From Eukaryota sp. GEM-RC1 (taxonomy: Eukaryota): a stretch of DNA of 64,000 nucleotides. Below are positions 124 through 25,456 of the stretch, piece by piece. The position numbers and the translations under genes are program-made. Position 1 is the first letter of the stretch, and each line of letters starts with the position of its first letter. The notes beneath the pieces are model-generated. The model had not been told where the DNA came from, did no database searches, and was given only the letters and a program-made list of their open reading frames with translations. The DNA lies in NCBI GenBank assembly GCA_040285855.1, contig JAUFOQ010000016.1, positions 2,666,001-2,730,000 on the forward strand, written 5' to 3'.

Positions 124-3100
124 TTACAAAGGACTAAACAATTTGGCTAAACCATCAAAAATTTCGGACACTTTCAATTTTGATTCCGCCAAGAATTCTA
201 AATCTTCATTGTAATAGCGAACTTCGCAATCTTGAGAATCCATGGGATGAAGTCCGACTCTCAAAACAAACTTCTTTAATAATCTACGATGATTTCTAAT
301 AGATGTCCTTTTGTCAGTTTCTGTAATGAATTTGCTTTGCTAGTAGTGAGTTTCTTTTTAAACTCAGGCTGAACTAATTCTTGTAGGAGCTCGATTGGGA
401 AAGTCTGCTCAACTAAATTTAATATAGTTAAAATCTCTTTAACTGGTTCATTTGCAAAATGGAGTCCAATATTTTGGCAAAAATCGTCAAGTCTTTTCTG
501 TTTCAGAAATGCCTTTAAGCTCATAGATCTGTCATTTGGAAGATCTGTAGCAATAGTTCTAGTGACAATAATAATTTCATTATACAAAGGTTGGTATTCA
601 TCATCAAAAATGGAAGGTGGACAGACAACATTATCATCAACAGTAAAACCTTGTTCCAAAAGAACATCCTCTAAATCCCACAAGTCTTTGGTTTTTGACA
701 ACAAAAACTCTGGTGATTCTATTGGTTCAATTTTGTGCTTAATCAATCCAGAAAGAATGTAACCGTCATAAACGTGATCTACAACTCGTAAACTGCAAGT
801 GAAAGGATCAAGGGTAATACCACGACTGTCATAATTGATTTGAACAAAGGAATCAGAATTGATTGAAAAGAGATCAATCGATCCCAATGAATAATTTCCA
901 ACAAGAGTATTATGAGTATTGACAAATTCCTCTTCAATTAGAGTTCGAATAGGTAATGCATCCTCAGAATCGTCAAGAGTGAATAATCCAAGGCAAGAAG
1001 AATCAGAAATTTTGTTTGGAACAGAAAGAGAAGTGCAACCAACAGTTACATTTCCTGTTCTCAGAGAAGTCCGTAAATCAGACAAAATACCACTATAAGT
1101 ATCACGAGCATCTACAAAAGGCTTCTACTTCCAGTACTGGTCAATATTTTTTTGGTTGGAGTTGCAATAGCTTTGAATTTGAACATTAAAGCGGTCTTTT
1201 CACGAACAAACTTCACCAGTTTTACAAATGCAGGGAGGTGTTCGGCAACGCTCATAAAAATACAAGCTTTAGAAATATCAACATTATTTAAAAATGGTGA
1301 TGACTTGTCAGGAATATCGTTAACAATTGGTGACGATGCAACCAAAGATGACAACGCAGCAACATCACTACCTAATTCCTCTATTGAAACTCCCTCAATT
1401 CTAGAGCTTAAAGTTAGAGCAGTCACATCAGACTTGGGAAGTGGATCAAGTTCAATTGAATTAAGAATGGTCATGATACGATCTTCAGCTTGAAATTTTT
1501 CCTCTATTGATGCACATACAAAATTTGGAATTTCATTAGAAATCTTTCGAATTACGTGCGCAAGGATTAAAGAGACTTGAGGTCTAGTAACACGCAGAAT
1601 GTTGGCCAAAACATTTAAACATTCAATCAATGTATCACGAAGTTGAGCCAATCCATGTTCAACGTCATACATTCTAGCATACTGGTCTCCAATACCATTA
1701 GTAACACAAGCACGAGCTAAGACCATGTACAAAAAGACACATGATCCAAGTAACCAAGATCTTAGATTTGAATAGCGGAATAAACCCTTCATACAAGGTT
1801 CTAAAGTTCCATTAGTAAATACATCGTAACGACCAGGTTGTAGTCCAGGTTGCCATTGAGGATTGGAGGAAAAGTGTTTGAAAGGAACTTCAGGTGAAGA
1901 ATCCATTTGTGACCAATTGATAGCAGAACATTTTGGACACTTGTGTTGATCTGGGCCAGTCCAAACATTAGGCCCACTACCACGATCACTAACTCCTGAG
2001 CGCCCACAATCACCAACAATTTGGGTAAAACCACAAGTTAAACAGTAATAGAGATGCAGTCCAATGTTTTTCAAATGAATTCGTGCAAATGAACTGCTTG
2101 GAAAATTGAAAGGAATAAAATCAGCTTCAATAGAGGAAGTAGTGAAGACTTGACAAGCATCAGAATTTAAAATTTCTCCCAGTGGAAGTAGACAACAAAG
2201 GGAAGTATCAAAAACATTGAAAAGTTGTTTAAAATTTGATTCTGGTATATTCCTATTCTTAGAAATCAAAATAGCAGAAACCTTATGCCCAGTAATTTCA
2301 GATAGGTCAATAGCTCCGCTTTGAAGTCTTTGGACTTCTTCAATGATTGCAGGATTACTCTTATAGTCAGTATCACCTGCTAAACCACTAAAATCGTCAT
2401 CATTCAAGTTCAATGGGGCAAGTAACTCCTGTTTTTGACTGGTAGTTCCATCTGAATCCTTGATTAAACAAGAAAGAGCTTCCATTGCTTCACCCTCAGT
2501 TCCACGTGATAAAAGTAAACGAATAAGGAAAGTCTTTGTTCCAATCAAATGTGATTTTGTCTGTTCTGATGGGTCAAGTGAGAAGATCAACACTTCAATA
2601 GGAAGTGTATGGTTTTTGTCAATAAGATCTGTAATCAAGACAGAAAATAACTTACTATAAAGAGTTATTAGAGTGAGTTGTGAGGCTTTACGTAACTTGT
2701 CCAGTACTTCAGACAGAGTTGGTAAGTGGAAACCAAGTTTAGGCAGACATGAAGCAAATGACTGAGACAAAGAAGCCAAAAACCATGGGAAAGTGTCAGG
2801 ATTAGCATACATTGAAAAGAGAGCTTCAAGAGCAGTCGTTACCGATGTAACAAATGTTGACAATTTTTTCGGCTTTGTTTCATTTATCAGCTTTTCAAAC
2901 AGTTTTTCAAATATTAGTGGAGCTACATCACCAATAACAGAAGAGTCAGTGACAAACTCAAAAAGATTAGATTGTAAGAGCAACTTATGGTCAAAATAAT
3001 CACAAAGAGCTCCAATAACACGTAGCCGATTAGGTGTTGGATCTGACAAGAAGAATTTAATAGTGTCTAAAACACCTTGCTTACTAGTAATTAAATTCTC

Positions 3101-6100
3101 AGAAGCAAGTTCGTCAGGACAATCATGAACATATGCTAACTTTAACCAAGAAGTACATATTCTGCCTAAAGAACTATCCTCAATCTCTAAAGAAAGATGA
3201 GATAACACAGCTTCTTTAGCTTCAGGTTGGAGAGAATTAATGAGCTGGAAACCCAGAGCTGTCGCTGATTGATCCTCATGGATTGGTTGGTTGAGTGATT
3301 GCAGATGAGCAATAACACGTGATTGGTGATACAGTTGTTTGTTTGTCAAGAAAATGTAAAGCTCAGAAAAGAGATCAACGATTGAGGAACAGTCAGAAGC
3401 ATTTTGAACGAAAGAATCTACAAGGTAATCTGATATCTGGAAATATTCAAATATTGGTCGAACAATTGAGGTGATATCGTTGTTTCCAAATTTGCAGTTG
3501 TAATTGTGAAGCAAAACATCGTGAACTGACATATCTTCAATAAACTCCAAAAAGAGATCAAGTTCAGAGTTGTTATCACGATGATATTCAATTAAAGCAC
3601 AAATAAAGTATATGAAATGTAACTCACCAAAATTCAAAATTTCAAAGGAATTGCATGGTAAATTCCAGTGAGGAAATTTCGTCGAAGAAAGAATCCAAGA
3701 AACACAGTGAAGGTAAGAATTACTAGGCATTAAATCGGTATCAAAAGGAATCATCAAATTCCAATCAATTAAAACAGAAAAAACCCCCTGTAATTGAGAA
3801 AGTAAATGACCTTTAACAAATAAATCAAGTTGTTCTAATAAACATTTAGTTTCATTGGTAGAAACATTAAACTGAGTATTTGCAGAAGCTGGAATTCTGT
3901 CAGATTCTTGAAGAAGAGGAAGAACCACGTGGAAAAATTCAACAAAAGCATCTCCTAATGACGTGACCATTTGATAACAAGGTCGGATTTTGGCAGGAGG
4001 AAGAGGCAGTTTCATTAGGGCAGGAACTAGGAGTGATCCATACAGCGGTAATAATTGATCTCGTGGAATATCAGAAACTGAAAAATTGAATAATTGAGAA
4101 ATATTGGAAACAGAATCACCAACTATTGAAGCATAGTTAATTGAGTCACAATAGACTGCAATGAAAGAAGAAAGTGGAGATATCTGGAGACCTTCACCAT
4201 TGATCATGGCGATTACAATATCGAAATTTGAGAGATATTTTAAAAATACTTGGGGATCTGCGTGTTGGCTGAAGTGCTTTTTCAATGTATCAGAAATATT
4301 CAATTTTTCAATGAAATCATAATGCTGAGCCTCATCGCCTTCAATTCTAATAACCAACAAAGATTTGGCTGTTTCTGCTGTATCTTCGTCGAGTAATTTT
4401 TGGATAATTTCAATACCAGTATTTTTCAATAATGTTTTTAAATCACTAGATTCAGAAACACTAGAAACGTTGGCGATTTTCACAGAATCATATCCAGGTA
4501 ATGAGTCAAACGACTGTCCAAACACTTTAGACAGAGCTACGACTTTAAGTGGATGTTGAAGTACGGCAAGACTAGAAAGGTGGTCAAGGGCATGGGTAAG
4601 AGTAAGAAAAGGACCATCATGGGAGTGATTGTTAGATGAAATAACATGGGCAGGATTTGCAAGAAAATGAAGACGTTCAAGACGAAGATTATCAACAAGT
4701 TTCAATTCAGACAGGAAGTTTTGCCGAATTTGAGAATTAGAAATTGAACATTTTGGAAGCGATTTTAAAACACCCAAATCATTAAACATATTTTCAATAT
4801 CAGCAGTTGATTCTTTCACAGCAACAAGATCTGAAAGAACAAACTTTTCCATTCTATTCAAGAGAGCTGGAGGTGTGGATTTTAAATTTTCTTCGGAAAC
4901 TACCAAAATAATTTTAGTTTTTTCATGAACGTGGCACAAAGAGTTAGAAACAGGTCCTAAAGCAACTCTACAAAGAGCATCACCGGTTTTTGTATCTTTT
5001 CTAAGATAATTCTTATTGATTAAATCGAACAAAGCTCCAATAATGTGTTCAGTACCAGAAAGAACAATCACTTTCCCTAACTTAACAGCAGTAATCACTT
5101 TTGATAGATGATTATAGGACACATCATTGTAAGCATCCTTCTCAAACCGTGAACCTTGAACCACGACAATATCTTGCCGTGATCTGTTAATAACATACAA
5201 TGAGAATTGGAGGGAGCCAATAAAGAGAACATGTCTTGAATCGGCGGTTGAATCCTGAATTGATGCTAAACATGCTGTAAGTGAATCCTTTTGAAGTTTT
5301 GGTCGGTCTTGAAAAGTGACTCTACGTGGGTAGAAAAGAGAAGTGACGATGCCCTTGTCGTTCGTTATCCTTTTGAAACATCAGGAGAAAAAATATCAGT
5401 AAGAACTTTAAAAACGGCATCATTCTTTAAAGGTAAACCTCCATAAGCTCTGAGGAACCCATTACGTCGATTCCGTTGGGTAAAATCACTTCTATTCAAC
5501 CACTTAGATAGCTGGTAAGCATCTCTCATACCGTAGAATTGATTACCATGACAAGGATAAATCTTATAAGCTTGAGCCTTCATAAGCTTATGAATCTTTG
5601 TTAGTAGAATGGGAATTTTGTCATCATTATACTGGCCAATTTCCTTCAGTAAAGCAGTAAGTTCAGCATCAGAGGGCTCCTGACGATGGATGACGATAGC
5701 ACGACTAGAAGGAGCGGCATCAAAGTCTGAATTAGAGATTCCAATGAAGGCAAACAGAGGTACTTTTTTCTTCTCGAGGTTCCAGGACAGAATGTAAACA
5801 CTTTAGAGGGTTTGCAGGGGCATCTAAAAGTAAAGAAATTTCGTCCATGATTAGAGCTTGACGAACGTTAGTATCAGCTATTGCATTTTTCTTGACTCTA
5901 TCTACCACGGTCATTACTGATTTAGTAGTTGCGGCGTGACTTCCTTGGAAATGATGAGGGAAAATACGATGAAATCCAGATTCACCAGTATTAACTTTGG
6001 AAAGAAAAGTAAGTAAAACAGTAAGTGAAAGAGACTTTGAAGTTCCTGGAGCACCAATAACCATAATTGGAGTTCTAGAAATTAAGGCAAGAAACATTGC

Positions 6101-9100
6101 AAAAGTATTTTCCAAAAAGTAGGTAGTTTTACGAACACCTTCAGGAAGAGTTCCCAAGTCTACGAACTGAGACAACGTGGTATTAATTCTCTGTTGAGCA
6201 ATAGCCGGTCTAATGTGTAGTTCCCCGCAAATTCTTGATAGAAGTGTGTCTTGATCGACCTTAGTAGGTAATCTAAGAATGTAGCACACGTAAACAGTGA
6301 GGAGAAGCAAGTGCGAAAAAGTGGACTCAGAGAAGAACATGAAACCAGGAGCAAGATCGTTTTTAAATTCGATCAAAAATTTCAAAATTCTTGTTGCTCT
6401 AACTGCATCTCGAAGAGAGATCATCCAAGGAACATTAGCAGCAACTGATATATTGTTCAAGCATTTATGGATTCGTGACAAAGTTCGAGCTAAAGTAGCG
6501 ACTTCAGTAGTGGAACAAATCGAAACTAAATCAGATCGTTCAGCTATTTTAACGACATATTCTTCTTCATCCTGTTCAGACAACTTACCAAAGTCCATCA
6601 TAAGAGGGATTAAACATGAAGGTTCTGGGTGAACATTATACAAAAGCTTATCACCATCACCTTTTTGATATGGATTGATAGCAGCTACTAAACGGACTTT
6701 TGGATGTAAAGTTAGAGTTCCAAGTTTTCTGTTGGTAATTAAACAAGACACAAGTCCTAAGAAATCAGAAGCATTACATTCGTCTAAAAATAGAATCGGA
6801 AAGAGAGGACTTTCAGGAGGAAGTAGTATGGCGAGATCGTTGACCCTTTTAATAGCATCTTCTACTTCGTGAAGTTCTGTACCAGCATTAACGGTAACAT
6901 TAACAAATAATTCTTCCCATAAATTAGGATTTTCAGCAGAATTATTCCAAAATAAAATAAAACTTAAACATTCGAGTAAATGAGTTTTTCCAACACCACT
7001 AGCACCTCGAAGAATGGTTGGCAAATTAGCGGAAAATCTAAGAGCAATTAAGGTTTGTTTAAGGTAAGCATCACCAGTGAGGGCGTAGCTTCCGAAACGT
7101 TCTTTCCATAATTTAGGTGGTACAGAGCTATCAAAAGTAAATGCTCGAATTTTCGAAATTTTACCTTCATCAGCGACTGGAATTTCAACTGAATCCCTGG
7201 AATAAGTGTTCATATCTATATAGGTTTTGAGAGCACGTGGAACTCTACTTCCTCTTGGAACTGTAATTGAAGGAGATTCACGAGTTAACATGAACATAAC
7301 ATGATTCATATCATTCCAATTGATCACAACTTCCTCTCTATCCACAATGGTAGTCGGAACTGACATGAGGACGGTCTGACGAGAAAAACCAAATATCACA
7401 TCAATGACATCACGTCGGATGTCTTGAATGTGACTGACACTGATTCCACTATCACTCATAATGTCAGCACTAAAGAAAGGAGCCTTATCAAAGTAGTTCA
7501 ATTGAGATCCAAGTAAAGAGACAATATCTGTAAGAAGTCTAAATGACCATTGACTTTGATGAGGAGGAGGTAGATCTGCAAAAGTATTAGTAAAAAGAGG
7601 TTCTAACGAAGAAGGAGAATTGAGAAGAGAAGAAAGAAAACGACAAACAGTAGCAGCATTTGCAATCATTTCATCAGAAGTAAAATCAACATGGGAAAAA
7701 TCAAAAGAAAGTTCATGGACCAGACCAGTTTTGTTTGGATACAAAGAATCTATAAGAGAATCATACCAATTAAATGAAGTTGAACTGGCTTTGGAATTGG
7801 CCGCGAACTCAATATACATCTTATTTTCAAGTCTAAAAATAGAACCATTGTGCCGGATACCTGAAAGAAAGGACAAGGAAAACAAAATGTAGCCAGTATT
7901 GTAGAAGTCTTGAGAAGTCAATTTGGATGACGTTGTCCAGTGTTCCCCAGTTAACGTTCTTTTTAAAACATCCAAAGGCTCTCGAATATCTAAATGAATA
8001 TTGGGATTCGTCCAATCAATCTGGTCGTCACGAAGATACTTATCAATAAATTGAGAAATATCGACTTTTCCAGAAATATTAAATGTTTTCGGATGCGTTT
8101 CAACTAAACCTTCATGAATGCATTCTCTTAAACACCTTGTAGTTTTACCTTGACCAGGTACTGCTGACGTGTAAATTGCACCTACAGTACAGCTTTCTAA
8201 TACTGAAGATAGGTCGACTTCTGAAGGAAGGGTACCAAGTACACAGTGGGTATTGTCAAGGAAATCAGTACCACACCCAACTACAGAAATTTTAAAATTG
8301 TCCTTGTTCTTATCCTTCATGTAGATATAGAACTTCTCCCGAACAGAAAATCTCAATTGATCAAAACCAATAATTAATCGTTCAGATACTAGTGAGTCAG
8401 ACATAACTGCAACTAAAGAACTGAAAGAAGTTTCCCAATTACAAATTAAAACATTTCGAATGTTTAATTCAATGTCTCTAGAAACTGCTACTTTCAAAGC
8501 ATCAGTGAAGAGTTTTGATAGAGAATCTGATTGGAAATACGTGATTGATCGGTCTTTGATTTCAACAGAAGGAGGAGGAGAATTGAAGATTTCCTCGAGT
8601 TTAACATTAACAGAATTACTGGCATCAATTCCAGATTGAGCCTCTTCATTTATTAAATATTCTGGAATATCAAAGAACACCTGAATATCAGCCACTCGAA
8701 GTTTTAAAAGAAAATTTGAAATTTCTTTTGGATGCATCCCTCTAAACCAGCCATTTTGAGCTTGTTCCAAGAGAGTCATCCAAGTATCACGTAATTCTCG
8801 TAAAGTCTCGACTTGTTGTTGAATACCAGAGTTATGTTCTTCAATCATGACAATAAGTTCAGGCTCATTAGATTTGATGGGAAAACCACAATCAACTAAT
8901 TGTCTCAAAATAAAAAGTGTTTCATCAACTAGCTGGCACATATTTAAAAATTCATCTCTTTTTCATCATCAACTCCAGACTTTCGATCAACTTGTTCCTC
9001 GATATTCTCAATTGATTCTGCTTGTAAAAGAATTCCTTCAGCTCTAGCTCTATGAAACTCCTCTTCTGGGACATCAATTGTACTACCTTCACCAGTAGGA

Positions 9101-11947
9101 AGTTGCAGACCGACAGTGATGGTCTCAAGATTGAAAAGTAACGTTCCTTCTTGGAAATTACACTTAGAAATGATATTAATCAAAGCAGATTGGTCACCAT
9201 CACTGCCCAACAATTCATTAATTGCCTTGATTGCACTCTTTAATTGATTGATGGACTTACAATCGGCAGCAACACGTTGAGGAGAGTGGCAATTTTCTTC
9301 CATCCAGACATGCAGATTCCTTATAAGCTGACGCATATAGACATCTCCACCATGAAATACTGGCTTTAATACAGAATTCCAAAGAGATTTGGGATCATCC
9401 AACATACTGATAAAAAACTGAGCAACAGAGCTATTAACAGTATAAGATGCGGCAAAGTTACCATAAAGCTTTGATGAAAGTTCTTCAGGAGTTAAAGTAG
9501 AGTATTTGTTCAGAATTGAAAGTAATTCATCTACATTGTTAAGAAGTTGGAAGATTTGTAAAAACAGTGGTGGTGACGTACGATTGCAATGACTACAATC
9601 AATCAGTGAACTGAAATTCTTGGAGTAAGATCCAAAGTCAGATAATAAAGAATCTGAAGAGAGTTCCTGAATAGAATTAAATTTTTTATCAGCAAGCGAA
9701 ATTTTGATTGAGCTCAATAATCCAGAAGCCTTCTGGAAACAAGCGATGATTGGATCCCACACGTGACGATTGACCCATGATTTGATATTGAAAAGATCTT
9801 CTTCATGAAGTTTTCCAGAGGGATTTAGAAGAGAGAGAATTTCGATTTCATTAAACATTTCTTCTTCATTAAAATCACTGTAGACGGATTCCAAATGAGA
9901 AGCCTTGACATCAGGTTCAAGCAATTGGGTAATGAATTGTAGAATTTGTTGAGAAATTGTAGCAGCAACCGTGACAAGGTCAATTCCAGAAGGGACATCA
10001 CCTTCTTGATCTTCTTCAACAATATCCCCTTCTTCGTCATCACTAAGGAGGATGGCAGGGAGCTCAATCATGACGTTTGAACTGGAATTAACATAGCTGG
10101 TATAGAAATGACGGAATAGAGCCGTAGAAGAGATCTTTGCAACTAAAGTTTCAGGAGGGAACTTATTATCGAACTGAACGCCTTCCAAAAAGGCGGAAAC
10201 AATCTGAGTGATAACAGTAGAAATTGGATTAGCCAATACAGTAGATAACTTCGCAGTAGATACGAAAAGAGAGTCTTTCAGTTTGTGAATGGAATTGAAT
10301 TCGTCAGGTAGATCGAAGACTTCAGCAATAGTAACAAAATCAGTGAGCTTTAGCTGGAAGAGTTCAATTTGAGAAAATATTTCGGTAAATCGACTACGCA
10401 AAGACTCCTCGACAGTATCTTCAACTTGTAATAACCATGATGGCGCAAAATTAGCAATGAACTTTTCAAAGTTAGTTCCTTCTTTTAATAAAAGAATATC
10501 TCCTACTACGCAAGTTTCTTCAATGTTATTGTAAACATTCTTGCAATATGCAAGAGCTTGACTCAAAGGAATTTGCATGATGAAAGCCTCGCGTAATGGT
10601 GGTTCAATCAAGCTTTCTAGACAATCAAAGGAAATGTTGGAAAAAAGCCGAGTCAAATACTGCTGAATTTCTGGAGTTTGTGACCATCCATTGAAGATAT
10701 TAGGAAGGCCCAGAACAAGAGTTTGGAACAAGTTATGAACAGAACCACGTTGTACAAATTCACGAAGAATTACAATTAAAACTTTTTGAGTTTTAGAGTC
10801 TAGTTTGAAGAATTCAACAATGACTGGAATAGCTTGTATAACAGACTTCGTATGCTTAAAATTCTTCAAGAGTTCCCAAAATTGAGCATTGTTATTGAGA
10901 TGTGTGGCTACAAACGCCAAAGCATGAGGGTTCTGTCGTATGATCAAGCCAATGGATTTAAGAAAGTTGTCGGGTGAGAGTAAACCATCCTTCCAGTTCC
11001 TGAAGAGGAATTTGGAAAGGAGTAAGGAGTTGTTGTCATGTTGAAGCCGATTTAGTATTGGTTCGTGAAGAGAGTCATGGACCTTGAGAGAGAGGTAGCT
11101 ATGGGGGAGAACATCAATAAGTTGGGTACAGAATTGGTGGGAAAGCTCTTTAGGAAAAGGAGAAGAAGCGAGACGGAGAAAGCTGGTTGGGGATTGATCT
11201 TTGAAAGAGCGGAGGCTTCGACTGAGCAAATGTTGATGTTGAGAAAGAAAGCCGAAATCTGGTTGGAAGGAGGACTGACCGGAAAGAGCGGAGAAGACTG
11301 GGAAGAGAATTGAATGGTCTGAGTTATGTTGGAGGAAATGGCTAACGATGGCAGAAGAGTTGCGGAAGGACCAAAACTGTGGAGACTGGAAACAACAATG
11401 AAAGAGATTCGGTGGATATGTGGCTTAGAAGAGACCTGAACAGAGCTAAGCAATCAATGAGGAGGGGAAGTTGATGGTAGCGTACAAGAACTCTGATGGC
11501 GAACTGGATCCCTTCTGTCAATCCATGTGAAGAGAAATCTACGACAAATTGGCCCGCGACAGCCATATCGAATATTCTCCTTGTGATACGGCATAGAAAA
11601 TCCAGATCTTTGATATACTGCTGGCCACTATGGAGAACATCAGCGAGAGCAATTAGCAGCTCACCAGCATAAAAGGGAGTGTTGCGCCCTAAGCAAGAAT
11701 CGATGATGACGGGATCCTTATCACGACTGTTATCATGATACTCACGGTTATATCCAGGTTCTATGGCATTCTTAGAACGATACTTGTATTCAAATGACTG
11801 TTTGTCCAGTTTGACAAAGTAGCAACGTCCTTCCCCTAATTGTGTCAAAGAAATGGCTCGAACCCAGTAATTAAAGGACCCTTTTATAGAAAATGGACCC
11901 TGAATACCTTTCAAAAGGACAAAGCATGGTACTTGTTGTTTCACCAT
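124..11947 (-). CDS. RNF213: RNF213/mysterin-like giant AAA+ ATPase / RZ-finger E3 ligase (copy A, ~3,900 aa): CBM20-like N-terminus, helical stalk, dynein-like AAA modules, E3 module with RZ finger, C-terminal domain
   Basis: Consecutive minus-strand ORFs 11342-11959, 8944-11229, 5732-8941, 5365-5583, 1112-5200, 276-1085 and a tail ending TAA at 124-126 join by single-base shifts, mostly in homopolymers. Motifs matching RNF213: GSFNYW..FEYKY..EPGYNR (CBM20-like), PGQGKTT, GASGVGKT/LFLDECN, GAPGTSKS/MDEISL..PLKCLHSVLE, FYGMRDAY, GSRFEKD, CRVALG, PPALLNRMEK, and RZ-like YYCLTCGFTQIVGDCGR..CPKC. Likely start ATG at 11947 (MVKQQVP). Confidence 0.88.
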
Positions 11948-12129
11948 AAATGAAAGCAAATGATAGAATTAAATTTCTGGAATGTTTCTTCTAGTTGTTC
12001 GATTTGATTTAGAAGACAGATCAATAATGATAAGATCACTTCATGTTGATGAGACCATATGCTATGTTCGCCCCACAATATACAATGATCTTCAATTGCA
12101 GCAACGAAACATTTGTTTTGTGTTTCAAC

Positions 12130-12766
12130 CATAGTTGTGGATACCTATATCCCAATAAATAGAATACCTAATACCTGCCAAAATACCAAAATACCGAATA
12201 CCTCAGCCTGATACCTGAATACCCAGAAAAATGATTGAACACATTATCGAAACTAATTTATATAACCTGTTGTACAAACATCTAACTCAACAATCCACAG
12301 TGCTACAAACTATGTTACTCGTCACTTCGTCTTGATTTTCTTCCACTTTGGCATAGTCCATCCCTATGGTTGACAACCATTACACCTGATATCCACAAGT
12401 TCTTTCGTGAGAACCTTGGCTGTGACAAGCTTCCACAATGAGTTCTTAGAAGTTTGCCTAACGGTGGCAAAAGAAGTGTCCTCTTTTTGGGAAAAGATTC
12501 AAAGAGAAGGTTGGCAACAATTCAACAAACAGTTTTAATCTGGTGTTGACTTAGAACACGTACAATGTATCCATTTGTTCAAAAATAGAAAACTTGATTA
12601 ATCTAAATGAATATACTAAACAAAATTAATACTATTTAAATGTAGCATTAGAAGGGTACTTTTGGTAGTGACAGGTATCTCCAATATGAGACATGAAAAT
12701 ACCTAATACCTACCTCAATACCTAATACCTACCGAAATACCTCGAATTTAGGTATCCACAACTATG
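12130..12766. mobile_element. Non-autonomous hAT-type MITE, 637 bp
   Basis: Perfect 18-bp TIR CATAGTTGTGGATACCTA (12130-12147, inverse 12749-12766); 8-bp TSD GTTTCAAC (12122-12129, 12767-12774); subterminal ATACC(T) repeats at both ends. Confidence 0.93.
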
Positions 12767-13713
12767 GTTTCAACAGTTTGCAATGTAGATATACGGAAAT
12801 GTTGGACCAGCTGCATAAGGTTTTCTATCACCCTTTGGTAAATTGAACAGTTTATTGATGGAGGGTACAAAAATGTATATCATAATCAAAGCTATGATAC
12901 ACTAGACACCGAAAATTCCTGGTCCACAGTACCACAGTTTTTATACAACGTTGTGAAAATTGATTTAAAAAACTTAGGCATCGAACGGAACAACGAACAA
13001 ATCAAACAGTTATGCCAAATTGATAAGTTAATTCTCTTAATTTCATTAATTAATTGGTAAATTGTGTTCTGAGTACGGTAAAGTTTTCAATCAAAATTTC
13101 TGATAGAGGTTAACAACGCACAGGTAATTGAATTCAATTTTAGGTAAGTTGTTGGGTGATGGACAGAAAATCATAGTTTAGATAGTTTAGATAGTGTCTG
13201 TTAGTTATTGTTTTCTGCAAAAGCCTTTATTTCACCGATTGATCATAAACCCCGTTTTTTTGGAATACAAGTGATATATGTAGAGACTAAACAACTAAGA
13301 TTTGATACAAATTGTATCATTAAAGCAAAACCCGTCCTATCAAAGATTAGAACAAAATATACTAAGAGTGCTAAAATGTTCACTTATGTTCATTTAAGTT
13401 CAGTCAGAGTCTTGAATTGTTGGTACGTTGTTGTTGATGTAGTTGGATGTATCAGATCAGTTCCTGGAGCAACTAGGCGTCTAGAAGAAGGTGCGGATAA
13501 GTTTTCACTTGGTCGTCCCTTAGTTTCTGAACAAAATTTGGTTAATAAGAAGTGGCAGTTTGAAGGAGATACCATGTGTTGATGTGTTAATTGTTTTGGT
13601 TGTTTTCGACCAATTTTGGAAGGCGCAAAATGTATACACTTTGAAAAGTCATCGGTATGCACTTTTCAAAAACAGGGTACAGTACGCCTGGGTATTATTC
13701 ATGGTTTTGAAAA

Positions 13714-15968
13714 ATGAAAACCAATTCCTTCACACTTCATATGGACTGCTTTGTCTGTTATCAGTCATTTAATCTATCTTCTCGTCTTCCTCTATTGATT
13801 TGTTGTGAAGAACACACTGCCTGTACTGAATGCTCTGCTTCTCTTAACAACTGTCCCATCTGTCGTACCAAATGTCTCACCGAGAAGAAAACCAATTTTG
13901 CTTTACAGGATCTCGTCCAAGCCTCTCGTAATGGCAATCTTTGTCCTCAAATTCCCTCCGATCACATACTTCTGGGAGCCAAGATCGCAAAGGAGGTTTT
14001 GCTGTCGTCTACGCATCACGTTATCCTTTCTCAATATGAGACTACATCAATTGTTGCTTCCATGATCTTCGTGGACGTTACTCTGTATATGAGACAACTT
14101 CTATTCTTGACTGAGAGCATCTCAGTTTTCTCTTGACATCTCTTCTTCTTCCCTGTCGCTGTAAAGATGGTTGAACTCACGGAAAAGGAAAACTCCAACT
14201 CCAAAAGGAAATGAATCTGCTCTACAACTTGAATCATCCTTCTATTATACGTGTCTATGGCATCTCCTTCTTCAATGAATCCATTGGTATCGTGATGGAA
14301 AGAGCTTCTTCTTCCCTCTCCTTCCCAAGTTCTCTGTCACCAGTAACACTTAGATACGTTAAAGAGCTTTGCCAGGGTGTCAAGTTTCTCCACCTGAAGT
14401 CTGTTGTACATGGTGACTTGAAACCAGGTAATATTCTTTTAGTGGATGGTCATGTTAAAGTTGCTGATTTTGGTACTTCCCAAACTGTTTCAGCTACTAC
14501 TAGAGTAACGAGCGCTAATGCTGTGACTTTCACATACGCAGCACCTGAACAATTTGATGATCCTCCTGGTCCTTTTAGTGACATTTATTCTCTTGGATTA
14601 GTTATTTATGAAATTTTGTCTGGAAAAGAAGCTTTTGAAGGGTATTCAACGAAGCAGATTTTTGGTGCGAAATTTCGAGACAAACCATTACCTTTTGATT
14701 CTTCAGTACCTGATTGTTTAAAGGATTTAATTTCAAAATGTTTGAATTCTGATCCCATGCTACGACCAACAATCAATGAAATCATTGAGGTTATTAAAAG
14801 TGTGATTGTTTCTGATTGTGATGATCAATCATTTTTTATTAACGACGGAAATCTTAAGGAGATCATTTCCCTTTTGAAGAGTGAAAAGAATAGTTTGAAG
14901 GTGAAAGTTTGTGATTTAGAAAGTAAATTTGAAAAATCCTGTCACGTTTCAAAAGGACTTCCTTTAATTACCCCATTGGTTATAAGTGATAACGATTTTA
15001 GTGGTCTAGCAGGTGATACTGACTATAAGAGTAATCCTGCAATCATTGAAGAAGTCCAAAGACTTCAAAGCGGAACTATTGACTTATCTGAAATCACTGG
15101 GCATAAGGTTTCTGCTATTTTAATTTCTAAGAATATGAATATACCAGAATCAAATTTCAAACAACTTTATAATCTGTTTGAAATATATATTTCATACCTA
15201 CTTCCACTCGGTGAAATTTTAAATTCTGATGCTTGTCAAGTCTTTATGTATTCCTTTATTGGTGCTGTTTTTATTCCCTTCAATTTCCCAAATAGTTGTT
15301 TTTCAAGAATTGGTATAAGTATGTATAGGTTTCATAGCTACATGTACTACTGTTTAACTTGCGGTCACACTCAAAGCGTTGGTGAAGATGGTAATCGTCC
15401 TGATGTTTGGAAATGGGTAGCTAATAATTGTCCAAAATGTTCTGCAGTCAATTGGGCACCAAAGAATTCTTCACCTGAAGTTCCTTTTAAACACTTTTCC
15501 TCCAATCCTCAATGGCAACCTGGACTACAACCTAGTCGTTACGATGTATTTACTAATGGAACTGTAGAACCTTGTATGAAGGGTTTATTCCGCTATTCAA
15601 ATCTAAGGTCTTGGTTACTTGGATCAAGTATCTCTTTGTACATGGTCTTAGCTCGTGCTTGTGTTAATAATGGTATTGGAGAACAGTATGCTAGACTGTA
15701 TGACGTTTATCATGGATTGGCTCAACTTCGTGATACATTAATTGAGTGTTTAAATGTTTTGGCCAACATTCTGCGTGTTACTAGACCTCAAGTTTCTTTA
15801 ATCCTTGCACACGTAATTCGAAAGATTTCTGATGAAATTCCAAATTTTGTATGTGCAACAATTGAGGAAAAGTTTGAAGCTGAAGCTCGTCTTATGACCA
15901 TTCTTGATTCAATTGAACTTGATCCACTTCCCAAGTCTGATGTGACTGCTATTACTTTGAGTTCTTGA
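13714..15968 (+). CDS. Chimeric RING finger - Ser/Thr (TKL-like) protein kinase - RNF213 E3/RZ-module protein
   Basis: RING: CFVC..LICCEEHTACTECS..CPIC. Kinase: (K)GGFAVVY after a 1-base shift at ~13990, VAVK, HGDLKPGN, DFG, APE, SDIYSLG. From ~14964 to the stop it is a close copy of gene A 1400-2425. An unexplained ~120-nt insert lies at ~14021-14140. Confidence 0.82.
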
Positions 15969-16331: not shown

Positions 16332-17153
16332 TACCGTAAAAAACGGTAACTGTTAAAATTCGGAAATTATTTACGGCAAATGTTTCCTTAGTGGATATAT
16401 AAAATTGTCTTTTTTCATGTCCCGAAAATCGAAACATCAAAGCATAATTGATCATCTTTATGAGAGTATTACAAGTGATGAGTTTTTATCGACATACCTT
16501 ACAAACTGTGAGCTGTTTCAAGTCTAAAACACGTCCAAAACACATTGTTTGGATTATTAGGAACAATGGTTTTTAGATATGGCTTTTGACCATAAGGGCT
16601 CCTTTATAATTTTTTAGAAATTTTATTGTAACATCTTCATATAGTTCATTATGCAAATACATGACGTAATTTCATGAACAAAATGTAAGTTTTATCCTCT
16701 ATTTTGTCATGAATTGAATCAGTTCAGTACTAATTGAACCGACATCAGTTTCCTTAGTACTTACAAGTACAGAATTGAGTAAGTCGGACACGTATTGTCG
16801 ACACGAAGAAGCTGGGTTACCATCATGGTTCTGAAGAATCAAGGGATCTACCACTGACAAGACTTCCCCAAAACCGTATTCTTTTGACAATCGTCATTGT
16901 TTGAAGTGAAGATCTTTTCCGTTTTCCGCTGTACAAGTTAAAATTCTCCAAATTGTTCAAACGGTTCTGCGTACAGACCATCCAGAACGATGTCATGACT
17001 CCGATTCTGATTAGTCAGTTCATGGTTTTTCTTTATCCGTTCTTAGTTCTGTAGTTTTACTTGTAAAACTATTTTTCCGTATTTCGCGTAGCCACTTTTT
17101 AAACTTGCCGTTAAATACGGCAACTGTAAAAATAGGAAACCAATTTACGGCAA
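16332..17153. repeat. Two copies of a ~48-bp quasi-palindromic motif (T(A/G)CCGT..ACGG..AACTGT..GGAAA..TTTACGGCAA), probably subterminal repeats of a decayed DNA transposon
   Basis: 16332-16379 and 17105-17153 align in direct orientation; each has TTGCCGT/ACGGCAA-type inverted ends. Confidence 0.4.
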
Positions 17154-18473: not shown

Positions 18474-21400
18474 ATGATGATATCGTTTCCAATTTCTCCC
18501 CTCAAAACACAGATAGCTTCCGCTTTGTTGAAAGACTTACAGATCGATAATAATTCCCCCCGTGAAATTTTAGTTGCAAAGATTGCTTCTACGGCTTTAT
18601 TCCATCATTTCTACACCATCTATGTTAATTCCTGTTCCGATTTCCTGCTTGAGCATCCTGCCACTCTGCTTAGTGATGACAAAGACGTCAAAGATTCTTT
18701 TGAAGAAGATCAAGATGATAATGTCCCTTCTGGACTTGATCCTGTAGCGGCTGCTGCTACAATTTCTCAACAAATTCTACAATTCATTGCCCAACTTCTT
18801 GAGCCTGATGTCAAGGCTTCTCATTTGGAGTCTATTTATAGTAGTTTTAAAGAAGGAGAAATGTCTAATGAAATTGAAATTCTTTCTCTCCTTGATTCCT
18901 CTGGAAAACTTCAGAAAGACGTACTTTTTAATATCAAATCATGGGTCAATCGTCACGTGTGGGATCCAATCATTGCATGTTTCAAGAATATTTCCGGAAT
19001 ATTTAGTGTCATCACAGTTTCAGCATCCATTGTTGATAGAAGATATGCTTTTGATGTGGAACTCTCTTCAGAATCTCTATTATCTGATTTTGGATCTTAC
19101 TCCAAGAAGTTCAGCTCAATGGTTGATTGCAGTCATTGCAATCGTACGTCACCGCCACTCTATTTACAAATCTTCCAACTTCTTAACACTGCGGATGACT
19201 TACTTCGAATTCTGAACAAATACTCAGCGTTCACACCGGAAGAACTCTCCTCAAAGCTTTATGATAACTTTGCCACCTCTTTTGCTCTTAGTAGCTCTGT
19301 TGCTCAGTTTTTCATTAGTATGTTGGATGATCCCAAATCTCTATGGAATTCGGTATTAAAGCCAATGTTTGATGATGGAAATGTTAACATGCGTCAGTTA
19401 TTAAGAAATCTTCATGACTGGATGGAAAAGATTGCCACTCTCATGATCGTGTCGCAGCAGATGTTAAATCAATCAATCAATTAAAGAGCGCAATCAAGGC
19501 GATTGATGAGTTGTTGGTCAGTGATGGTGATCAATCTGCATTGATTAATATCATTTCTAAGTGTAATTTCCAAGAAGGTATTTTACATTTCAATCTTGAA
19601 ACCATTACTGTCAGACTACAACTTCCTACTGGAGAAGATAGTACAATTGATGTCCCAGAAGAGGAGTTTCATAGAGCCAGAGCTGAAGGACTTATTTTAC
19701 AAGCAGATTCCATTGAGAACAACGACAAACAAGTTGATCGAAAGTCTGGAGTTGATGATGAAAAAAGAGATGAATTTTTAAATACGTGCCAGTTAGTTGA
19801 TGAAACTCTTTTCATTTTGAGACAATTAGTAGATTGTGGTTTTCCCATCAAATCTAATGACGATGAACTTATTGTTATGATTGAAGAACATAACTCTGGT
19901 ATTAAACAACAAGTCGAGACTTTACGAGAATTACGTGATACTTGGATGACTCTCTTGGAACAAGCTCAAAATGGCTGGTTTAGAGGCATGCATCCGAAAG
20001 AAATTTCCTATTTTTTCTTGAATCGTCAAGTGTCTGATATAGTGAAATTTTTTCATCTGTCGGGTTTGGACTGTAATTCAATCCAATCACGCAAAAATGT
20101 TCAATCAGGAATTGATGCTTGTCCCTCTGTTAGTGACACACTGCAGGAAGTTCTGAATTTTAGGGAACCATCATCTGTTGAAACCAAAGACCGATCAATC
20201 ACGTACTTTCAATCAGATTCTCTATCAAATCTCTTTAGTGATGCGTTGAAAGTAGCAGTGCACAGAGAGATTGAATTAAACATTCGAAATGTTTTAATTT
20301 GTAATTGGGAAACTTCTTTCAGTTCTTTAGTTGCTGTTATGTTTGACTCATTAACATCTGAACGATTAATTATTGGTTTTGATCAATTGAGATTTTCTGT
20401 TAGGGAACAGTTCTATACCTACATGAAGGATAAGAACGAGGAAAATTTTAAAATTTCTTTAGTTGGGTGTGGTACTGATTTCCTTGACAACACCTACTCT
20501 GTACTTGGTACCCTTCCTTCGAAAGTTGACTTGTCTGCAGTGTTAGAAAGCTGTACTGTAGGTGCAATTTACACGTCAGCAGTACCTGGTCAAGGAAAAA
20601 CTACAAGATGTTTGAGAGAATGCGTTCCTGAAGGTTTGATTGAAACTCATACAAAAACATTTAATGTTTCGGGAAAAGTTAATATTTCTGAGTTTATTGA
20701 AAAATATCTTCGTGATGATAAGATTGATTGGACAAATCCTAATATTCATTTAGACATTCGAGAGCCTTTGGATGTTTTAAAAGAACGTTCACTCGAGAAC
20801 ACTGGACAACGTCATCCAATTTGACTTCCCAAGACTTCTACAATACTGCTTACATTTTGTTTTCATTGTCCTTTCTCTCAGGTCTTCGTCACAATGGTTC
20901 TATTTTTAGACTTGAGGAAAAGATGTATATCGAATTTGCATCGTACAATTCCAAAGCCAGTTTAACTCCATTTAATTGGTATAATACTCTTATTGATTCT
21001 TTATATCCAAACAAAAATGGTCTTGTCCATGAACTTACTTTTGATTTTTCCCATGTTAAATTCACTTCTGAAGAAATGAAAGCACACGTCGCTACAATTA
21101 ATCGTTTTCTTTCCACTCTTCTCAATTCTTCTTTTCATTAGAACCTCTTTTCACTAATACTTTTGCAGATCTACCTCCTCCTCATCAAAGTAAATGGTCA
21201 TTTAGACTACTTACAGATATTGTTTCTTTACTGGGATCACAATTGAACTATTTTGATCAAGCTGTTGCCTTTTCTCCTGAGATTATGACTCTAAATGGGT
21301 ATAGTGACAGTCAAATTGATGACATTCGCCGTGGTGGTATTGACCTAATATTTGGTTTTTCCCGTCAAGCAGTTCTCATGTCAGTACCTACGATCAGTGC

Positions 21401-24400
21401 TCCTAATAGAGATGAAGTTGTGGTTAATTGGAATGATATGAATCATGTTATGTTCATAGTAACTCGTGATTCAATAACATCTACAATTCCAAGAGGAAGT
21501 ACCGTTCCAAATGCTCTCAAGTCCTATATCAGCTTGTATGAGTCATTTCGAGATTCTCCTGCAATTCCATCCTCTGATGAAGGTAAAATTTCAAAAATTA
21601 GATCTTTTACATATAACAGCTCTGTTCCACCTATATTATGGAAACAAAGTTTCGGAAGCTACGCCCTTACCGGTGATGCGTTCCTTAAACAATCCTTAAT
21701 TGCTCTTAGATTTTCTGCTAATTTGCCTACCATTCTTCGAGGTGCTAGTGGTGTTGGAAAAACTCATTTACTTGAATGTTTAAGTTTTGTTTTATTTTGG
21801 AATGAATCTGCTGAAAATCCTAATTTATGGGAAGAATTGTTTGTTAATGTTACTGTAAATGCTGGTACAGAACTACACGAAGTAGAAGATACTATTAAAA
21901 GGGTCAACGATCTCGCCATACTACTTCCTCCTGAAAGTCCTCTCTTTCCAATTCTATTTTTAGATGAATGTAATGCTTCTGATTTCTTAGGACTCATGTC
22001 TTGTTTAATTACCAGCAGAAAGCTTGGAACTCTAACTTTACATCCAAAAGTCCGTTTAGTAGCTGCTATCAATCCTTATCAAAAAGGTAATGATGATAAG
22101 CTTTTGTATAATGTCCATCCAGAACCTTCATGTTTAATCCCTCTTATGATGGACTTTGGTAAGTTGTCTGAAAAGGAAGAAGAAGAATATGTCGTTAAAA
22201 TAGCTGAACGATCCGATTTAGTTTCGAGTTGTTCCACTACTGAAATCACTACGTTAGCTAAGACATTGTGTCGTATCCATAAGTGCTTGAACAATAGATC
22301 TGCAGCTTCAAATGTTCCTTGGATGATCTCTCTTCGAGATGCAGTTAGGGCAACCAGAATTTTAAAATTTTTAATCGAATTTAAGAACAATCTTGCTCCT
22401 GAATTCATGTTTTTCTCTGAAAGAACCTTTTCTCATCTACTTCTGCTTACTGTTTACGTTTGTTACATCCTTAGATTACCAACCAAGAATGACCAGAACA
22501 GTCTTCTAAAAGTAATTTGCTATGAACTACGTACTTCACTTACTGTTGCTAGACAACAAATCAATACCACTTTGTCTCAGTTCGTAGACTTGGGAACTCT
22601 TCCTGAAGGTGTTCGTAAAACTACCTACTTTTTGGAAAATACTTTTGCAATGTTTCTTGCCTTAATTTCAAGAACTCCAATTATGGTTATTGGTGCTCCA
22701 GGAACTTCAAAGTCTCTTTCACTTACTGTTTTACTTACTTTTCTATCCAAAGTTAATACTGCTGAGTCCGGTTTTCATCGTGTTTTCCCTCATCATTTCC
22801 AAGGAAGTCACGCGGCAACTACTAAATCAGTAATGACTGTGGTAGATAGAGTCAAGAAAAGTGCAATAGCTGATACTAACGTTCGTCAAGCTTTAATTAT
22901 GGATAATTGTTCTTTACTTTTAGATGCCCCTGCAAACCCCTTAAAATGTTTACATTCTGTCCTAGAACCTCGTGAAGAAAAAGTACCTGTGTTTGCTTTT
23001 ATTGGAATCTTTAATTCAGACTTTGATGCCGCTCCTTCTAGTCGTGCTATCGTCATCCATCATCAGGAGCCCTCTGATGCTGAACTTACTGCTTTACTGA
23101 AGGAAATTGGCCAGCACAGGGGTACCAAAATTCCTGAACTTTTGACCAAGATTCATAAGCTTATGAATTATCAAGCTAATAAGATCTACCCTTGTCATGG
23201 TAATCAATTCTACGGTATGAGAGATGCTTACCAGCTATCGAAATGGTTGAATATTGGAAGTGGTTTTATTCAAAGGGATCGTCGTCTTGGTTTCCTCAGA
23301 GCTTATGGAGGATTACCTTTGAAGAATGATGCTATCTTTGAGGTTGTCTCCACAATATTTGCTCCAGAGAAGAAAAAGAGGGTGAGGAATGAATCTGGTA
23401 CTGAAGATATCGATCTTTTCTTTGATAAACCACTCCCCCGATCCTTCCGATCACAACTTGACAAGGAATTACTTATAGCATGTTCACGATCTCTCCGAGA
23501 TCCGTCTCCTGATTCAAGACATATTCTCTTCATTGGGTCACTCCAACACTCTTTGTATATTGTTGACAGGTCACGGCAAGATGTGGTCGTGGTTCAAGGA
23601 TCTAGGTTTAAAAAGGATGCTTATAATGACGTGTCCTACAATCATCTATCAAAAGTGATTACTGCTGTAAAGTTAGGGAAAGTGATTGTTCTCTCTGGTA
23701 CTGAACACATTATTGGAGCCTTGTTTGATTTAATCAATAAGAATTACCTTAGAAAAGATGCCATCACTGGTGATGCTCTGTGTAGAGTCGCTTTAGGCCC
23801 TGTTTCTAACTCTTTGTGTCACGTTAATGAAAAAACTAAAATTATTTTGGTAGTTTCAGAGGAAAATTTAAAATCCACACCTCCAGCTCTCTTGAACAGA
23901 ATGGAAAAGTTTGTTCTTTCAGATCTTGTCGATGTGAAGGAATCAACTGCTGATATTGAACGTCTGTTTGATAATTTGGGTGTTTTAAAATCTCTGCCAA
24001 AATGTTCAATTACTGATTCCCAAATTCGTCAGAACTTCCTATCTGAGTTGCAACTTGTTGATACCCTTCGTCTTGAACGTCTTCATTTTCTTGCAAATCC
24101 TGCCCATGTTATTTTATCTGACAATCACTCCCATGACGGTCCTTTTCTTACTCTTACCCATGCCCTTGACCACCTTTCTAGTCTTGCCGTACTTCAACGT
24201 CCACTTAAAGTCGTAGCTCTGTCTAAAGTGTTTGGACAATCATTTGACTCATTAACTGGATATGCTTCAGTTAAAATTGCCAATATTTCTAGTGTTTCTG
24301 AATCTAGTGATTTGGAGAGTTTGTTGAAAAATACTGGTATTGAAATAATTCAAAAATTACTTGACGAAGAAGCTTCAAAAACGGCTAAATCTTTGTTGGT

Positions 24401-25456
24401 CATTAGAATTGAAGGTGATGAGGCACAACATTATGATTTCATTGAAAAATTCAGTATTTCAGATGCATTGAAAAAGTACTTCAGTAAACACGCAGATCCC
24501 CGAGTATTTTTAAAATATCTCTCAAATTTCGATATTGTCATCGCCATGATTAATGGTGAAGGTCTTCAGATATCCTCACTGTCCTCTTTCATTGCAGTCT
24601 ATTGTGACTCAATTAACTTTGTTTCAATAGTTGGTGATTCTGTTTCCAATATTTCTCAATTATTAAATTTTTCAGTTTCTGATATTCCACGAGATCAATT
24701 ATTACCGCTGTATGGCTCACTCCTAGTTCCTGCCCTAATGAAGCTACCTCTTCCTCCTGTCAAAATCCGACCTTGCTATCAAATGATTACATCTTTAGGA
24801 GATGCTTTTGTCGACTTTTTCCACGAGGTTCTTCCTATTCTTCAAGAATCTGACAGAATTCCAGCTTCTCCAAGTACTCGGTTCAATGTTTCTACTAATG
24901 AAAATAAGTGTTTGTTCGAACAACTTGAAGTATTTGTTAAAGAACAATTACTTGTTCAATTACAGGGGTTTTTTCTGTATTAATTGATTGGAATTTGATG
25001 ATTCCTTTTGATACTGATTTAATGCCTAGTAATTCTTACCTTCACTGTGTTTCTTGGCTTCTTTCTTCGACGAAACTTCCTCACTGGAATTTAGCATCCA
25101 ATTCCTTTGAAATTTCAAATTTTGGTGAGTTACATTTCATTTACTTTATTTGTGCTTTAATTGAATATCATCGTGATAACAACCCTGAACTTGATCTCTT
25201 TTTGGAATTTATTGAAGATATGTCAGATCACGAGGTTTTGCTTCATAATTATACCTGCAAAGTTGATGAAAATGATATCACCTCAATTGTTCGACCAATA
25301 TTTGAATATTTTCAAATTTCAGATTACCTTGTCGATTCTTTCGTTCAAAATGCTTCTGACTGTTTCTCAATCGTTGATCTCTTTTCGGAGCTTTACATTT
25401 TCTTGACAAAGCAACAACTTTATCACCAAAGTAAAATGTTAGTTAATGTTAACTGA
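18474..25456 (+). CDS. RNF213-like paralogue B, truncated at both ends (distal stalk + AAA core + start of E3 back; no CBM20, no RZ finger)
   Basis: ORFs 18474-19484, 19511-20824, 20821-21141, 21243-24983 and 24995-25456 align collinearly with A 10227->3323. All four joins are -1 homopolymer deletions (~19427, ~20780, ~21133, ~24966). Homology stops at LYHQS (~25430), next to a hAT remnant. Could be a functional gene or a pseudogene. Confidence 0.8.

What the first reader, a model, noticed from the sequence alone, without database searches (positions are those of the whole stretch)
124..25456. Protist RNF213 cluster undergoing domain shuffling: candidate cell-autonomous antibacterial ubiquitin system
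Seen: three RNF213-derived genes in 25 kb: full-length A (minus), then on the plus strand a RING-kinase carrying A's RZ module (A 1400-2425) and B carrying A's stalk+AAA (A 3323-10227). The two plus-strand derivatives are non-overlapping parts of A in permuted order. Known: mammalian RNF213 ubiquitylates LPS on cytosolic bacteria through its RZ finger. Inference: a modular immune locus in a phagotrophic protist in which ATPase 'sensor' and E3 'effector' parts have been split and re-wired to kinase signalling.
Basis: partly seen in the sequence, partly recalled or inferred. Interest (0 to 1): 0.85.

Follow-up and report, generated by a model that had tools for sequence, protein, structure and literature searches.

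The report
RNF213 pieces captured by protist kinases
A single-celled eukaryote close to Skoliomonas carries a full-length relative of the human immune ligase RNF213 beside two partial copies, one of them fused to a kinase and missing the cysteine that carries ubiquitin in RNF213, so the captured piece likely serves as a binding or decoy part rather than as an enzyme.

Summary
The three genes are real and the coordinates hold. A (11947 to 124, about 3,940 codons) is a full-length, RING-less RNF213 relative: its AAA core matches by sequence, its E3 shell by fold (Z 12.6), and it has a divergent four-cysteine RZ-like finger that keeps the putative nucleophile. B is a headless, ligase-less stalk+AAA copy under purifying selection (dN/dS 0.29, no stops), with the AAA4 Walker B Glu lost. 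K is a RING-kinase carrying A's finger module, but without the nucleophile, the E2-docking C-terminal domain or the ATPase. This copy is also broken in its kinase N-lobe. The trio is not a dedicated locus: 17 RNF213-derived gene models turned up in the close relative Skoliomonas sp. GEM-RC1. Seven kinase fusions form one clade within a large RING-kinase family with variable tails. S. litria has an independent TRIM-like fusion, also cysteine-less. Shuffling is confirmed; the split sensor/effector model is not. Immunity and expression are untested. This scan noted RNF213-like genes in other protists and fungi before (48 notes), but my look-ups found no kinase fusion.

The parts
124..11947 (-). 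Gene A: full-length RING-less RNF213-like protein, about 3,940 codons, in 7 overlapping frames (6 breaks)
   Evidence: ORFs; ATG and stop read; colinear with full-length relatives P0003-P0006 of 3955-4396 aa
11670..11947 (-). A: N-terminal beta-sandwich, probably a CBM20/CBM48-type carbohydrate-binding module (weak)
   Evidence: Pfam AMPK1_CBM E 0.21 for A and CBM_20 E 0.0015 for P0004; Foldseek top hits AMPK glycogen-binding domain E 0.036; VIA wide search inconclusive
4800..8200 (-). A: dynein-like AAA core (approximate limits), with Walker A in AAA2/3/4 and Walker B in AAA3 (DE) and AAA4 (DE)
1399..2425 (-). A: E3-shell segment holding the RZ-like finger (CxxC at 2044, putative nucleophile in the G-D-C-G motif, second CxxC); the part captured by K
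   Evidence: model residues 365-642 align to human RNF213 4417-4702, Z 12.6, rmsd 3.8, 172 residues; HHalign 92%
124..1398 (-). A: hinge and C-terminal domain (the E2 docking site in mouse RNF213); absent from K and B
   Evidence: HHalign of family C-termini 70%, E 4e-5, 308 columns; controls at most 0.15%; A matches P0068 here at 71-72%
13741..15968 (+). Gene K: RING - Ser/Thr-type kinase - short coiled coil - RNF213 E3-shell/finger module; broken in the kinase N-lobe
   Evidence: Pfam; homologues with RING and kinase in one protein start at 13741; kinase C-part and module lie in one open frame 14175-15968
14016..14151 (+). K: 136 nt where homologues have 18 nt; holds stops; no GT/GC-AG intron restores an open frame (12 of 12 in-frame candidates hit a stop)
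14964..15968 (+). K: captured module (= A 2425-1399); four zinc-type Cys kept, putative nucleophile removed by an in-frame deletion of about 24 nt
18474..25456 (+). Gene B: stalk + AAA core + start of the E3 region (= A 10228-3323); no CBM-like head, finger or CTD; 4 frame breaks; AAA4 Walker B reads DN (codon at 22905)

Best explanation
A is a full-length, RING-less RNF213 relative that likely works as an ATP-gated ubiquitin ligase, and B and K are partial duplicates from a young gene family, in which the piece captured by the kinase lacks the catalytic cysteine and likely acts as a binding or decoy domain rather than as a ligase. Shown: a RING-kinase-coiled-coil family with variable C-terminal tails acquired RNF213's E3-shell/finger part in one clade, which then multiplied with three different junctions. 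K-type copies keep the four zinc-type cysteines but have lost the nucleophile, the E2-docking domain and the ATPase. Inferred: the dead module binds what the RNF213 E3 module binds (ubiquitin, a partner, or a microbial inhibitor) and passes the signal to the kinase and RING. The K copy in this window is probably itself a dead gene. B, an ATPase ring without head or ligase and with one hydrolysis site disabled, would act as an ATP-locked subunit that joins or damps assemblies of A. A role in defence against ingested bacteria is plausible by analogy only.
For: RNF213 architecture of A from head to CTD. The 7 of 36 kinases with RNF213 cargo form one clade, 95/100. Other tails among 28 scanned family members: LRR 7, ubiquitin 1, TLDc 1. 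The nucleophile is kept in 8 of 8 readable fingers of AAA-bearing copies (A, P0003-P0006, P0058, P0060, P0068). It is lost in 4 of 6 fusions with a readable finger: by deletion in K and P0022, by Ser in P0023 and P0063. K and P0023 share both junctions yet are only 73% identical in the module. K's module has no stop where 4.2 are expected under neutrality (P 0.013), and its indels keep the frame. There is an independent RING-B-box fusion in S. litria from another paralogue lineage, starting at nearly the same boundary. B: dN/dS 0.29, 0 stops in 2304 codons against 36 expected; the DN Walker B is shared with its sister P0001.
Against: No expression or biochemical data. K here is disrupted. dN/dS of A vs K is 0.45 (0.32-0.66); the upper end fits a neutral K branch, and K's branch is 2-4 times longer than A's. 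Cys loss is also what relaxed selection gives once the CTD is gone. P0024 and P0027 keep the Cys. B's truncation cannot be dated: selection may have acted on a full-length ancestor. P0001, P0063 and the other named fusions are automatic gene models whose DNA I could not see. The family also carries tails with no immune flavour (a SpoU-like piece in P0057).
Confidence: 0.5

Rival explanations
1. Only the full-length genes matter. B, K and their kin are by-products of duplication and rearrangement in a repeat-rich genome; they persist briefly and do nothing.
For: K is broken. Many of the 17 GEM-RC1 models are fragments. That genome is 48% repetitive (PMC11316075 Table 1). A MITE-like element and LTR elements lie in the window. 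Neutral evolution of K's branch is not excluded. Kinase fusions were found in one species only.
Against: The K-type architecture survives in copies 27% diverged. There are no stops in B or in K's module. B and P0001 begin at about the same stalk position and share the Walker B change at 88% identity. A second species shows a parallel capture.
Confidence: 0.27
2. The working form is the longer fusion (P0024/P0027 type). It keeps the cysteine and would act as an ATPase-free two-step ligase, in which the N-terminal RING loads the finger as Miz does for RZ in ZNFX1, under kinase control. K is a degenerate offshoot.
For: P0024 and P0027 keep the Cys and run from A 3349 to at least A 1094. The junction lies 435 aa before the finger, close to where a fish RNF213 has its RING (454 aa). 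An isolated ZNFX1 RZ fragment is active and a RING-like-to-RZ relay is proposed (10.1101/2025.10.14.682297, passages).
Against: The P0024/P0027 models begin inside the kinase, so their RING is unverified. They end before the CTD unless frameshifted. The general-base His is missing at the canonical place. Three fusion lineages lost the Cys.
Confidence: 0.13
3. One reading: B is the ATPase sensor and K the ligase effector of one split antibacterial machine encoded at this locus.
For: Non-overlapping complementary pieces side by side; B under purifying selection; B ends at A 3323, close to where P0024-type cargo begins (A 3349).
Against: K lacks the nucleophile and the CTD, and B+K leave out a third of A, including the putative carbohydrate-binding head. 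K's nearest relative (98%) is another gene model, and the family is spread over locus tags 001644-003134 of one contig. B has lost the AAA4 Walker B Glu.
Confidence: 0.07

Closest known systems
Mammalian RNF213 / mysterin (PDB 6TAX, 7OIK, 8S24, 9JWG)
   Same: Order of parts (CBM-like head, stalk, dynein-like AAA core with Walker A in AAA2-4, E3 shell, zinc finger with a non-ligand Cys, CTD); AAA core by sequence; E3 shell by fold.
   Different: A is about 1,200 aa shorter, has no RING, has a four-Cys finger with a long variable loop instead of CHCC, and has no His at the general-base position. The papers read describe no truncated or kinase-fused paralogues.
ZNFX1 (SF1 helicase + Miz + RZ)
   Same: An RZ finger attached to a different engine, with a RING-like domain in the same chain.
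   Different: ZNFX1 keeps the catalytic Cys and takes only the finger. Here the surrounding E3 shell is carried along, the partner is a kinase or RING-B-box scaffold, and the Cys is often lost.
Cereal kinase fusion / tandem kinase immune receptors with integrated domains (Sr43, WTK4, RWT4)
   Same: A kinase fused to a captured host domain; per the abstracts listed, an integrated domain recognises a pathogen effector.
   Different: Analogy only: unrelated lineage, N-terminal RING, no effector or defence function shown here.
TRIM ligases (RING - B-box - coiled coil - variable C-terminal domain)
   Same: P0063 of S. litria has RING and two B-boxes followed by an RNF213 E3 piece in the cargo position.
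   Different: K has a kinase in place of B-boxes. That TRIM C-terminal domains select substrates is recalled, not from a call.

Membership tests
RNF213 (gene A) | Dynein-like AAA core with Walker A and B in AAA3 and AAA4 | tested here: met
   9 of 9 PDB hits are RNF213, E 1e-26; motifs present
RNF213 (gene A) | N-terminal CBM20 domain | tested here: inconclusive
   Pfam CBM-clan hits below cut-off; Foldseek top hits are CBM48-type, E 0.036; low-confidence model; not decisive
RNF213 (gene A) | RING domain in the E3 shell | tested here: not met
   Only two CxxC pairs in the 1422-aa ORF, both in the finger; no Pfam RING. The RING is dispensable for activity in mouse, and RZ-bearing relatives P0013 and P0016 show no RING either
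RNF213 (gene A) | E3 shell fold around the finger | tested here: met
   9jwg_A ranks first by Foldseek (E 1.8e-3) and by VIA-align (Z 12.6, next 8.4)
RZ finger (gene A) | CHCC zinc site / Pfam PF20173 above cut-off | tested here: not met
   E 1.2, 9.3 bits against cut-off 27; four invariant Cys instead. Homology is supported by HHalign 89-92% against a 0.1% control
RZ finger (gene A) | Nucleophile Cys (human C4516 position) | tested here: met
   Aligned Cys-Gly present in A and in 7 of 7 other AAA-bearing copies with a readable finger
RZ finger (gene A) | General-base His (human H4537 position) | tested here: not met
   No His after the second CxxC in the alignment; a His elsewhere in the loop could substitute, untested
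RNF213 (gene A) | C-terminal E2-docking domain | tested here: inconclusive
   HHalign 70%, E 4e-5, controls at most 0.15%; homology likely, docking residues not checked
RNF213 (gene A) | ATP-dependent transthiolation and LPS ubiquitylation | not testable with these tools
   needs biochemistry
RZ-type E3 (gene K) | Nucleophile Cys and CTD present | tested here: not met
   Cys deleted in frame; gene stops at A 1399
RNF213 (gene B) | Intact AAA4 Walker B and an E3 module | tested here: not met
   DN instead of DE; ends at A 3323
Kinase fusion / integrated-decoy receptors (gene K family) | Kinase fused in frame to a captured host domain | tested here: met
   One open frame 14175-15968; 6 named relatives
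Kinase fusion / integrated-decoy receptors (gene K family) | The captured domain binds a microbial effector and triggers defence | not testable with these tools
   no effector or assay available

The most novel reading that the evidence does not exclude
In skoliomonad protists the RNF213 E3-shell/finger module has become a mobile cargo. It was captured independently by a RING-kinase family and by a TRIM-like scaffold at nearly the same boundary, repeatedly stripped of its catalytic cysteine and diversified in the finger loop. The result would be integrated-decoy immune receptors that guard RNF213 in a free-living bacterivore, alongside ligase-less ATPase subunits that tune it.
Probability: 0.2. 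Interest if true: 0.82.

Novelty: new variant of a known kind. Interest (0 to 1): 0.55.

Why it matters
RNF213 is studied as a single 5,200-residue animal protein whose sensing mechanism is open. A metamonad lineage with several full-length copies, a four-cysteine finger variant, ATPase-only copies and kinase or TRIM-like fusions offers natural dissections. They show where the protein can be cut, let one ask whether the E3 module can work without the ATPase, and let one ask what a cysteine-less module binds. If the fusions are decoys, the guard/decoy logic known from plants would extend to a unicellular predator of bacteria. If they are debris, what remains is a new, deep-branching RNF213 subfamily.

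Tried and rejected
No genome is held for this window, so paralogues were counted from named proteins of a close relative, not from DNA. No sequencing run was listed, which is no evidence on expression. The metagenome scan found 44 pattern matches and 0 relatives. The supplements of PMC11316075 that were searched hold no entry for four of the locus-tag numbers or for RNF213; one file was too large and one unreadable, and they might bear on expression. The finger-module profile against PDB sequences gave only an antibody chain, taken as chance. The ESM Atlas gave no usable hit. P0065 (C2H2 repeat protein), 1 of the 14 hits, was dropped as a Cys-pattern artefact. Introns as the cause of K's break were rejected. 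Decayed homology upstream of B was suspected by eye but not supported (p 0.82). A SPRY-like reading of some kinase tails (recalled resemblance) was not confirmed by Pfam. One versus two losses of the Cys among K, P0022 and P0023 is unresolved (AU p 0.30). There is no Rfam match in 1-27000, and a bacterial promoter scan was uninformative. Complex prediction was not run: B is too large, and halves of a split gene tend to pass by likeness to solved structures.

Full report
Observation. The window holds a long minus-strand gene A (ATG 11947, stop 124) and two plus-strand genes that copy parts of it. B (18474-25456) matches A 10228-3323 at 86.7%, and the 3' part of K (14964-15968) matches A 2425-1399 at 84.9%. 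The junctions are sharp.

Frame breaks. A has 6 breaks in 11.8 kb and B 4 in 7.0 kb. The neighbouring Snf2 gene (Mot1-like by a DUF3535 hit and its top PDB matches, name recalled) has 5 in 4.5 kb. Eight of 9 located breaks lie at runs of 4 or more identical bases, against 20% of background positions; the other three breaks of A were not placed exactly. Close relatives were assembled from nanopore reads with short-read correction (PMC11316075, section 6 and passages). I read these breaks as probable assembly errors. The exception is K 14016-14151: 136 nt where four homologues have 18 nt, containing stops, and none of 12 in-frame intron candidates gives an open frame.

Origin. The closest named proteins are from Eukaryota sp. 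GEM-RC1 (86-98%), then TZLM1-RC and TZLM3-RCL. These are Skoliomonas, anaerobic bacterivorous metamonads (PMC11316075 passages; PMC11603281, start of abstract in listing). That the window's organism is a skoliomonad is an inference from these matches.

Gene A. All 9 solved-structure hits of the AAA ORF and all 4 of the next ORF are RNF213. Walker A is present in AAA2-4 and Walker B in AAA3-4. A model of A 3349-1115 is mediocre (pLDDT 57). It still ranks the human RNF213 E3 module first by Foldseek (E 1.8e-3) and by VIA-align (Z 12.6, rmsd 3.8, 172 residues, model 365-642 on human 4417-4702; next hit 8.4). That range contains the human RZ finger (C4505-H4537; PMC11549300 passages) and lies within what K captured. 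The finger itself is divergent. Pfam RZ gives E 1.2, four Cys are invariant in 6 of 6 aligned copies, and the general-base His is absent. Profile-profile comparison with six RZ-type relatives gives 89-92% against 0.1% for a control, and paralogue P0068 has the most RZ-like motif. A keeps the Cys at the nucleophile position and has no RING. The family's C-termini match the RNF213 CTD at 70% (controls at most 0.15%). The N-terminus is a beta-sandwich with weak, concordant CBM20/48 signals; the wide fold search was not decisive. A is thus a RING-less RNF213-like protein with an RZ-like finger; its ligase activity is inferred.

Gene B. Over 2255 aligned codons dS is 0.31 and dN/dS 0.29 (95% 0.25-0.34). 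There are no stops in 2304 codons, whereas neutral decay since the split would give about 36, and even 2% neutral divergence gives P(0)=0.015. B was therefore coding until very recently at least, but its truncation cannot be dated. It has an in-frame ATG-ATG 14 nt before the homology start and a stop 27 nt after its end. AAA4 Walker B reads DN in B and in its sister P0001 (BTB + stalk + AAA; SH-aLRT 88), and DE in A, P0002-P0006 and P0068. In mouse RNF213, Walker B mutants bind ATP and keep E3 activity (10.1101/2021.05.10.443411 passages), while in cells hydrolysis is needed for cooperative coat formation (PMC11549300). An ATP-locked, ligase-less subunit that joins or damps assemblies of A is my inference.

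Gene K and its family. K's kinase belongs to a large family. Of 33 hits at E<=1e-40, 30 are GEM-RC1 proteins. A RING pattern begins 19 of 35 examined, and among 28 scanned the tails include LRR (7), ubiquitin (1) and TLDc (1). Six named members carry RNF213 pieces; with K they form one clade (95/100, 36 rows, 97 columns). There are three junctions: A 2425 (K, P0022, P0023), A 3349 (P0024, P0026, P0027) and A 3817 (P0034). K and P0023 share both junctions at 73% module identity. A vs K gives dN/dS 0.45 (0.32-0.66, 327 codons, rough in the finger), so constraint on K's own branch is suggested but not proven. The module has no stop against 4.2 expected, and its indels keep the frame. The finger region is the most variable part among five close copies (29% invariant columns against 60% and 76% in the flanks). 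The nucleophile is deleted in K and P0022, is Ser in P0023 and is kept in P0024 and P0027. Mouse RNF213 needs this Cys, the CTD and ATP binding; K has none, so it cannot be an RNF213-type ligase.

Wider picture. In all, 17 GEM-RC1 gene models were RNF213-derived, 12 on one 3.56-Mb contig with locus tags 001644-003134. This is a lower bound from capped searches, and some models may be pieces of one gene. A profile search of 1.84 billion representatives gave 14 hits: 13 skoliomonad and one artefact. One is P0063 of S. litria (TZLM1-RC): RING, two B-boxes, then an RNF213 E3 piece from about A 3301, with Ser at the nucleophile position, grouping with a different paralogue (SH-aLRT 91). It is a gene model whose DNA I could not check. 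The nucleophile is kept in 8 of 8 readable AAA-bearing copies and in 1 of 4 fusion lineages (tail probability 0.018, lineages not independent). Two copies were left out because their models are garbled at the finger (P0002, P0066), and one because it is a fragment of unknown context (P0061, Cys kept).

Mechanism. Best reading (0.5): A is the working ligase, the kinase-borne module is a catalytically dead binding or decoy domain, the K copy here is probably dead, and B is a regulatory ATPase subunit. Rivals: neutral debris (0.27); a RING-to-finger relay in the longer fusions, by analogy with ZNFX1 (10.1101/2025.10.14.682297 passages) (0.13); the split sensor/effector pair (0.07). Human RNF213 is a target of a bacterial effector, but through its RING (PMC12440826 passages), which A lacks. 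This makes decoys conceivable but gives no direct support. Plant kinase fusion receptors are known to me from a search listing with abstract starts only.

Novelty. Searches for RNF213 with protist, non-metazoan, unicellular, choanoflagellate or metamonad terms listed no paper on protist RNF213 paralogues or fusions. 'metamonad + ubiquitin + RNF213' gave 0 papers, and the main text of the genome paper does not mention RNF213, kinase or ubiquitin. The library lacks most subscription papers. This scan holds 48 earlier notes on RNF213-like genes in at least 18 genomes; the 8 shown were mostly RING-less relatives with varied fingers. Look-ups for kinase fusions or for these sequences found none. 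Verdict: a real, lineage-specific RNF213-like family with recurrent module capture; a new variant of a known kind; immune function unproven; interest 0.55.

Noticed in passing
window 27016-31519 (-): Mot1/BTAF1-like Snf2 ATPase gene split into 6 overlapping frames; used as a control for assembly indels.
   Followed up: partly
window 32845-37990 (-): One long ORF joins a kinesin motor, a hydrophobic stretch, four carboxypeptidase-regulatory-like repeats (237-nt period) and BspA-type leucine-rich repeats; another odd fusion.
   Followed up: no
window 12121-12775: MITE-like element between A and K: 30-nt inverted ends, 90% complementary, with short internal repeats.
   Followed up: no
window 43830-63999: LTR retrotransposon copies (protease, RT, RNase H, integrase); 46348-50928 and 54794-59370 are a 99.5% direct duplicate; a different element lies on the minus strand from 59369.
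   Followed up: no
window 14029-14109: The insert in K holds two 28-nt repeats 53 nt apart that encode the same short peptide with synonymous differences, as if taken from another coding gene; no source among stored proteins.
   Followed up: partly
P0063 (P9112_009508, S. litria): TRIM-like RING-B-box-B-box protein fused to an RNF213 E3 piece with Ser at the nucleophile position.
   Followed up: partly
P0001 (GEMRC1_001644): BTB domain fused to stalk + AAA core, sister of B, same Walker B change.
   Followed up: partly
P0008, P0009, P0012: Other RNF213-like proteins with extra parts: source names mention PARP and CARD in a flatworm; weak UBA hits in an unnamed 2266-aa protein.
   Followed up: no
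window 41123-42118 (+); 53753-53836: KHDC4/BBP-like KH protein; a run of 28 ATC repeats.
   Followed up: no
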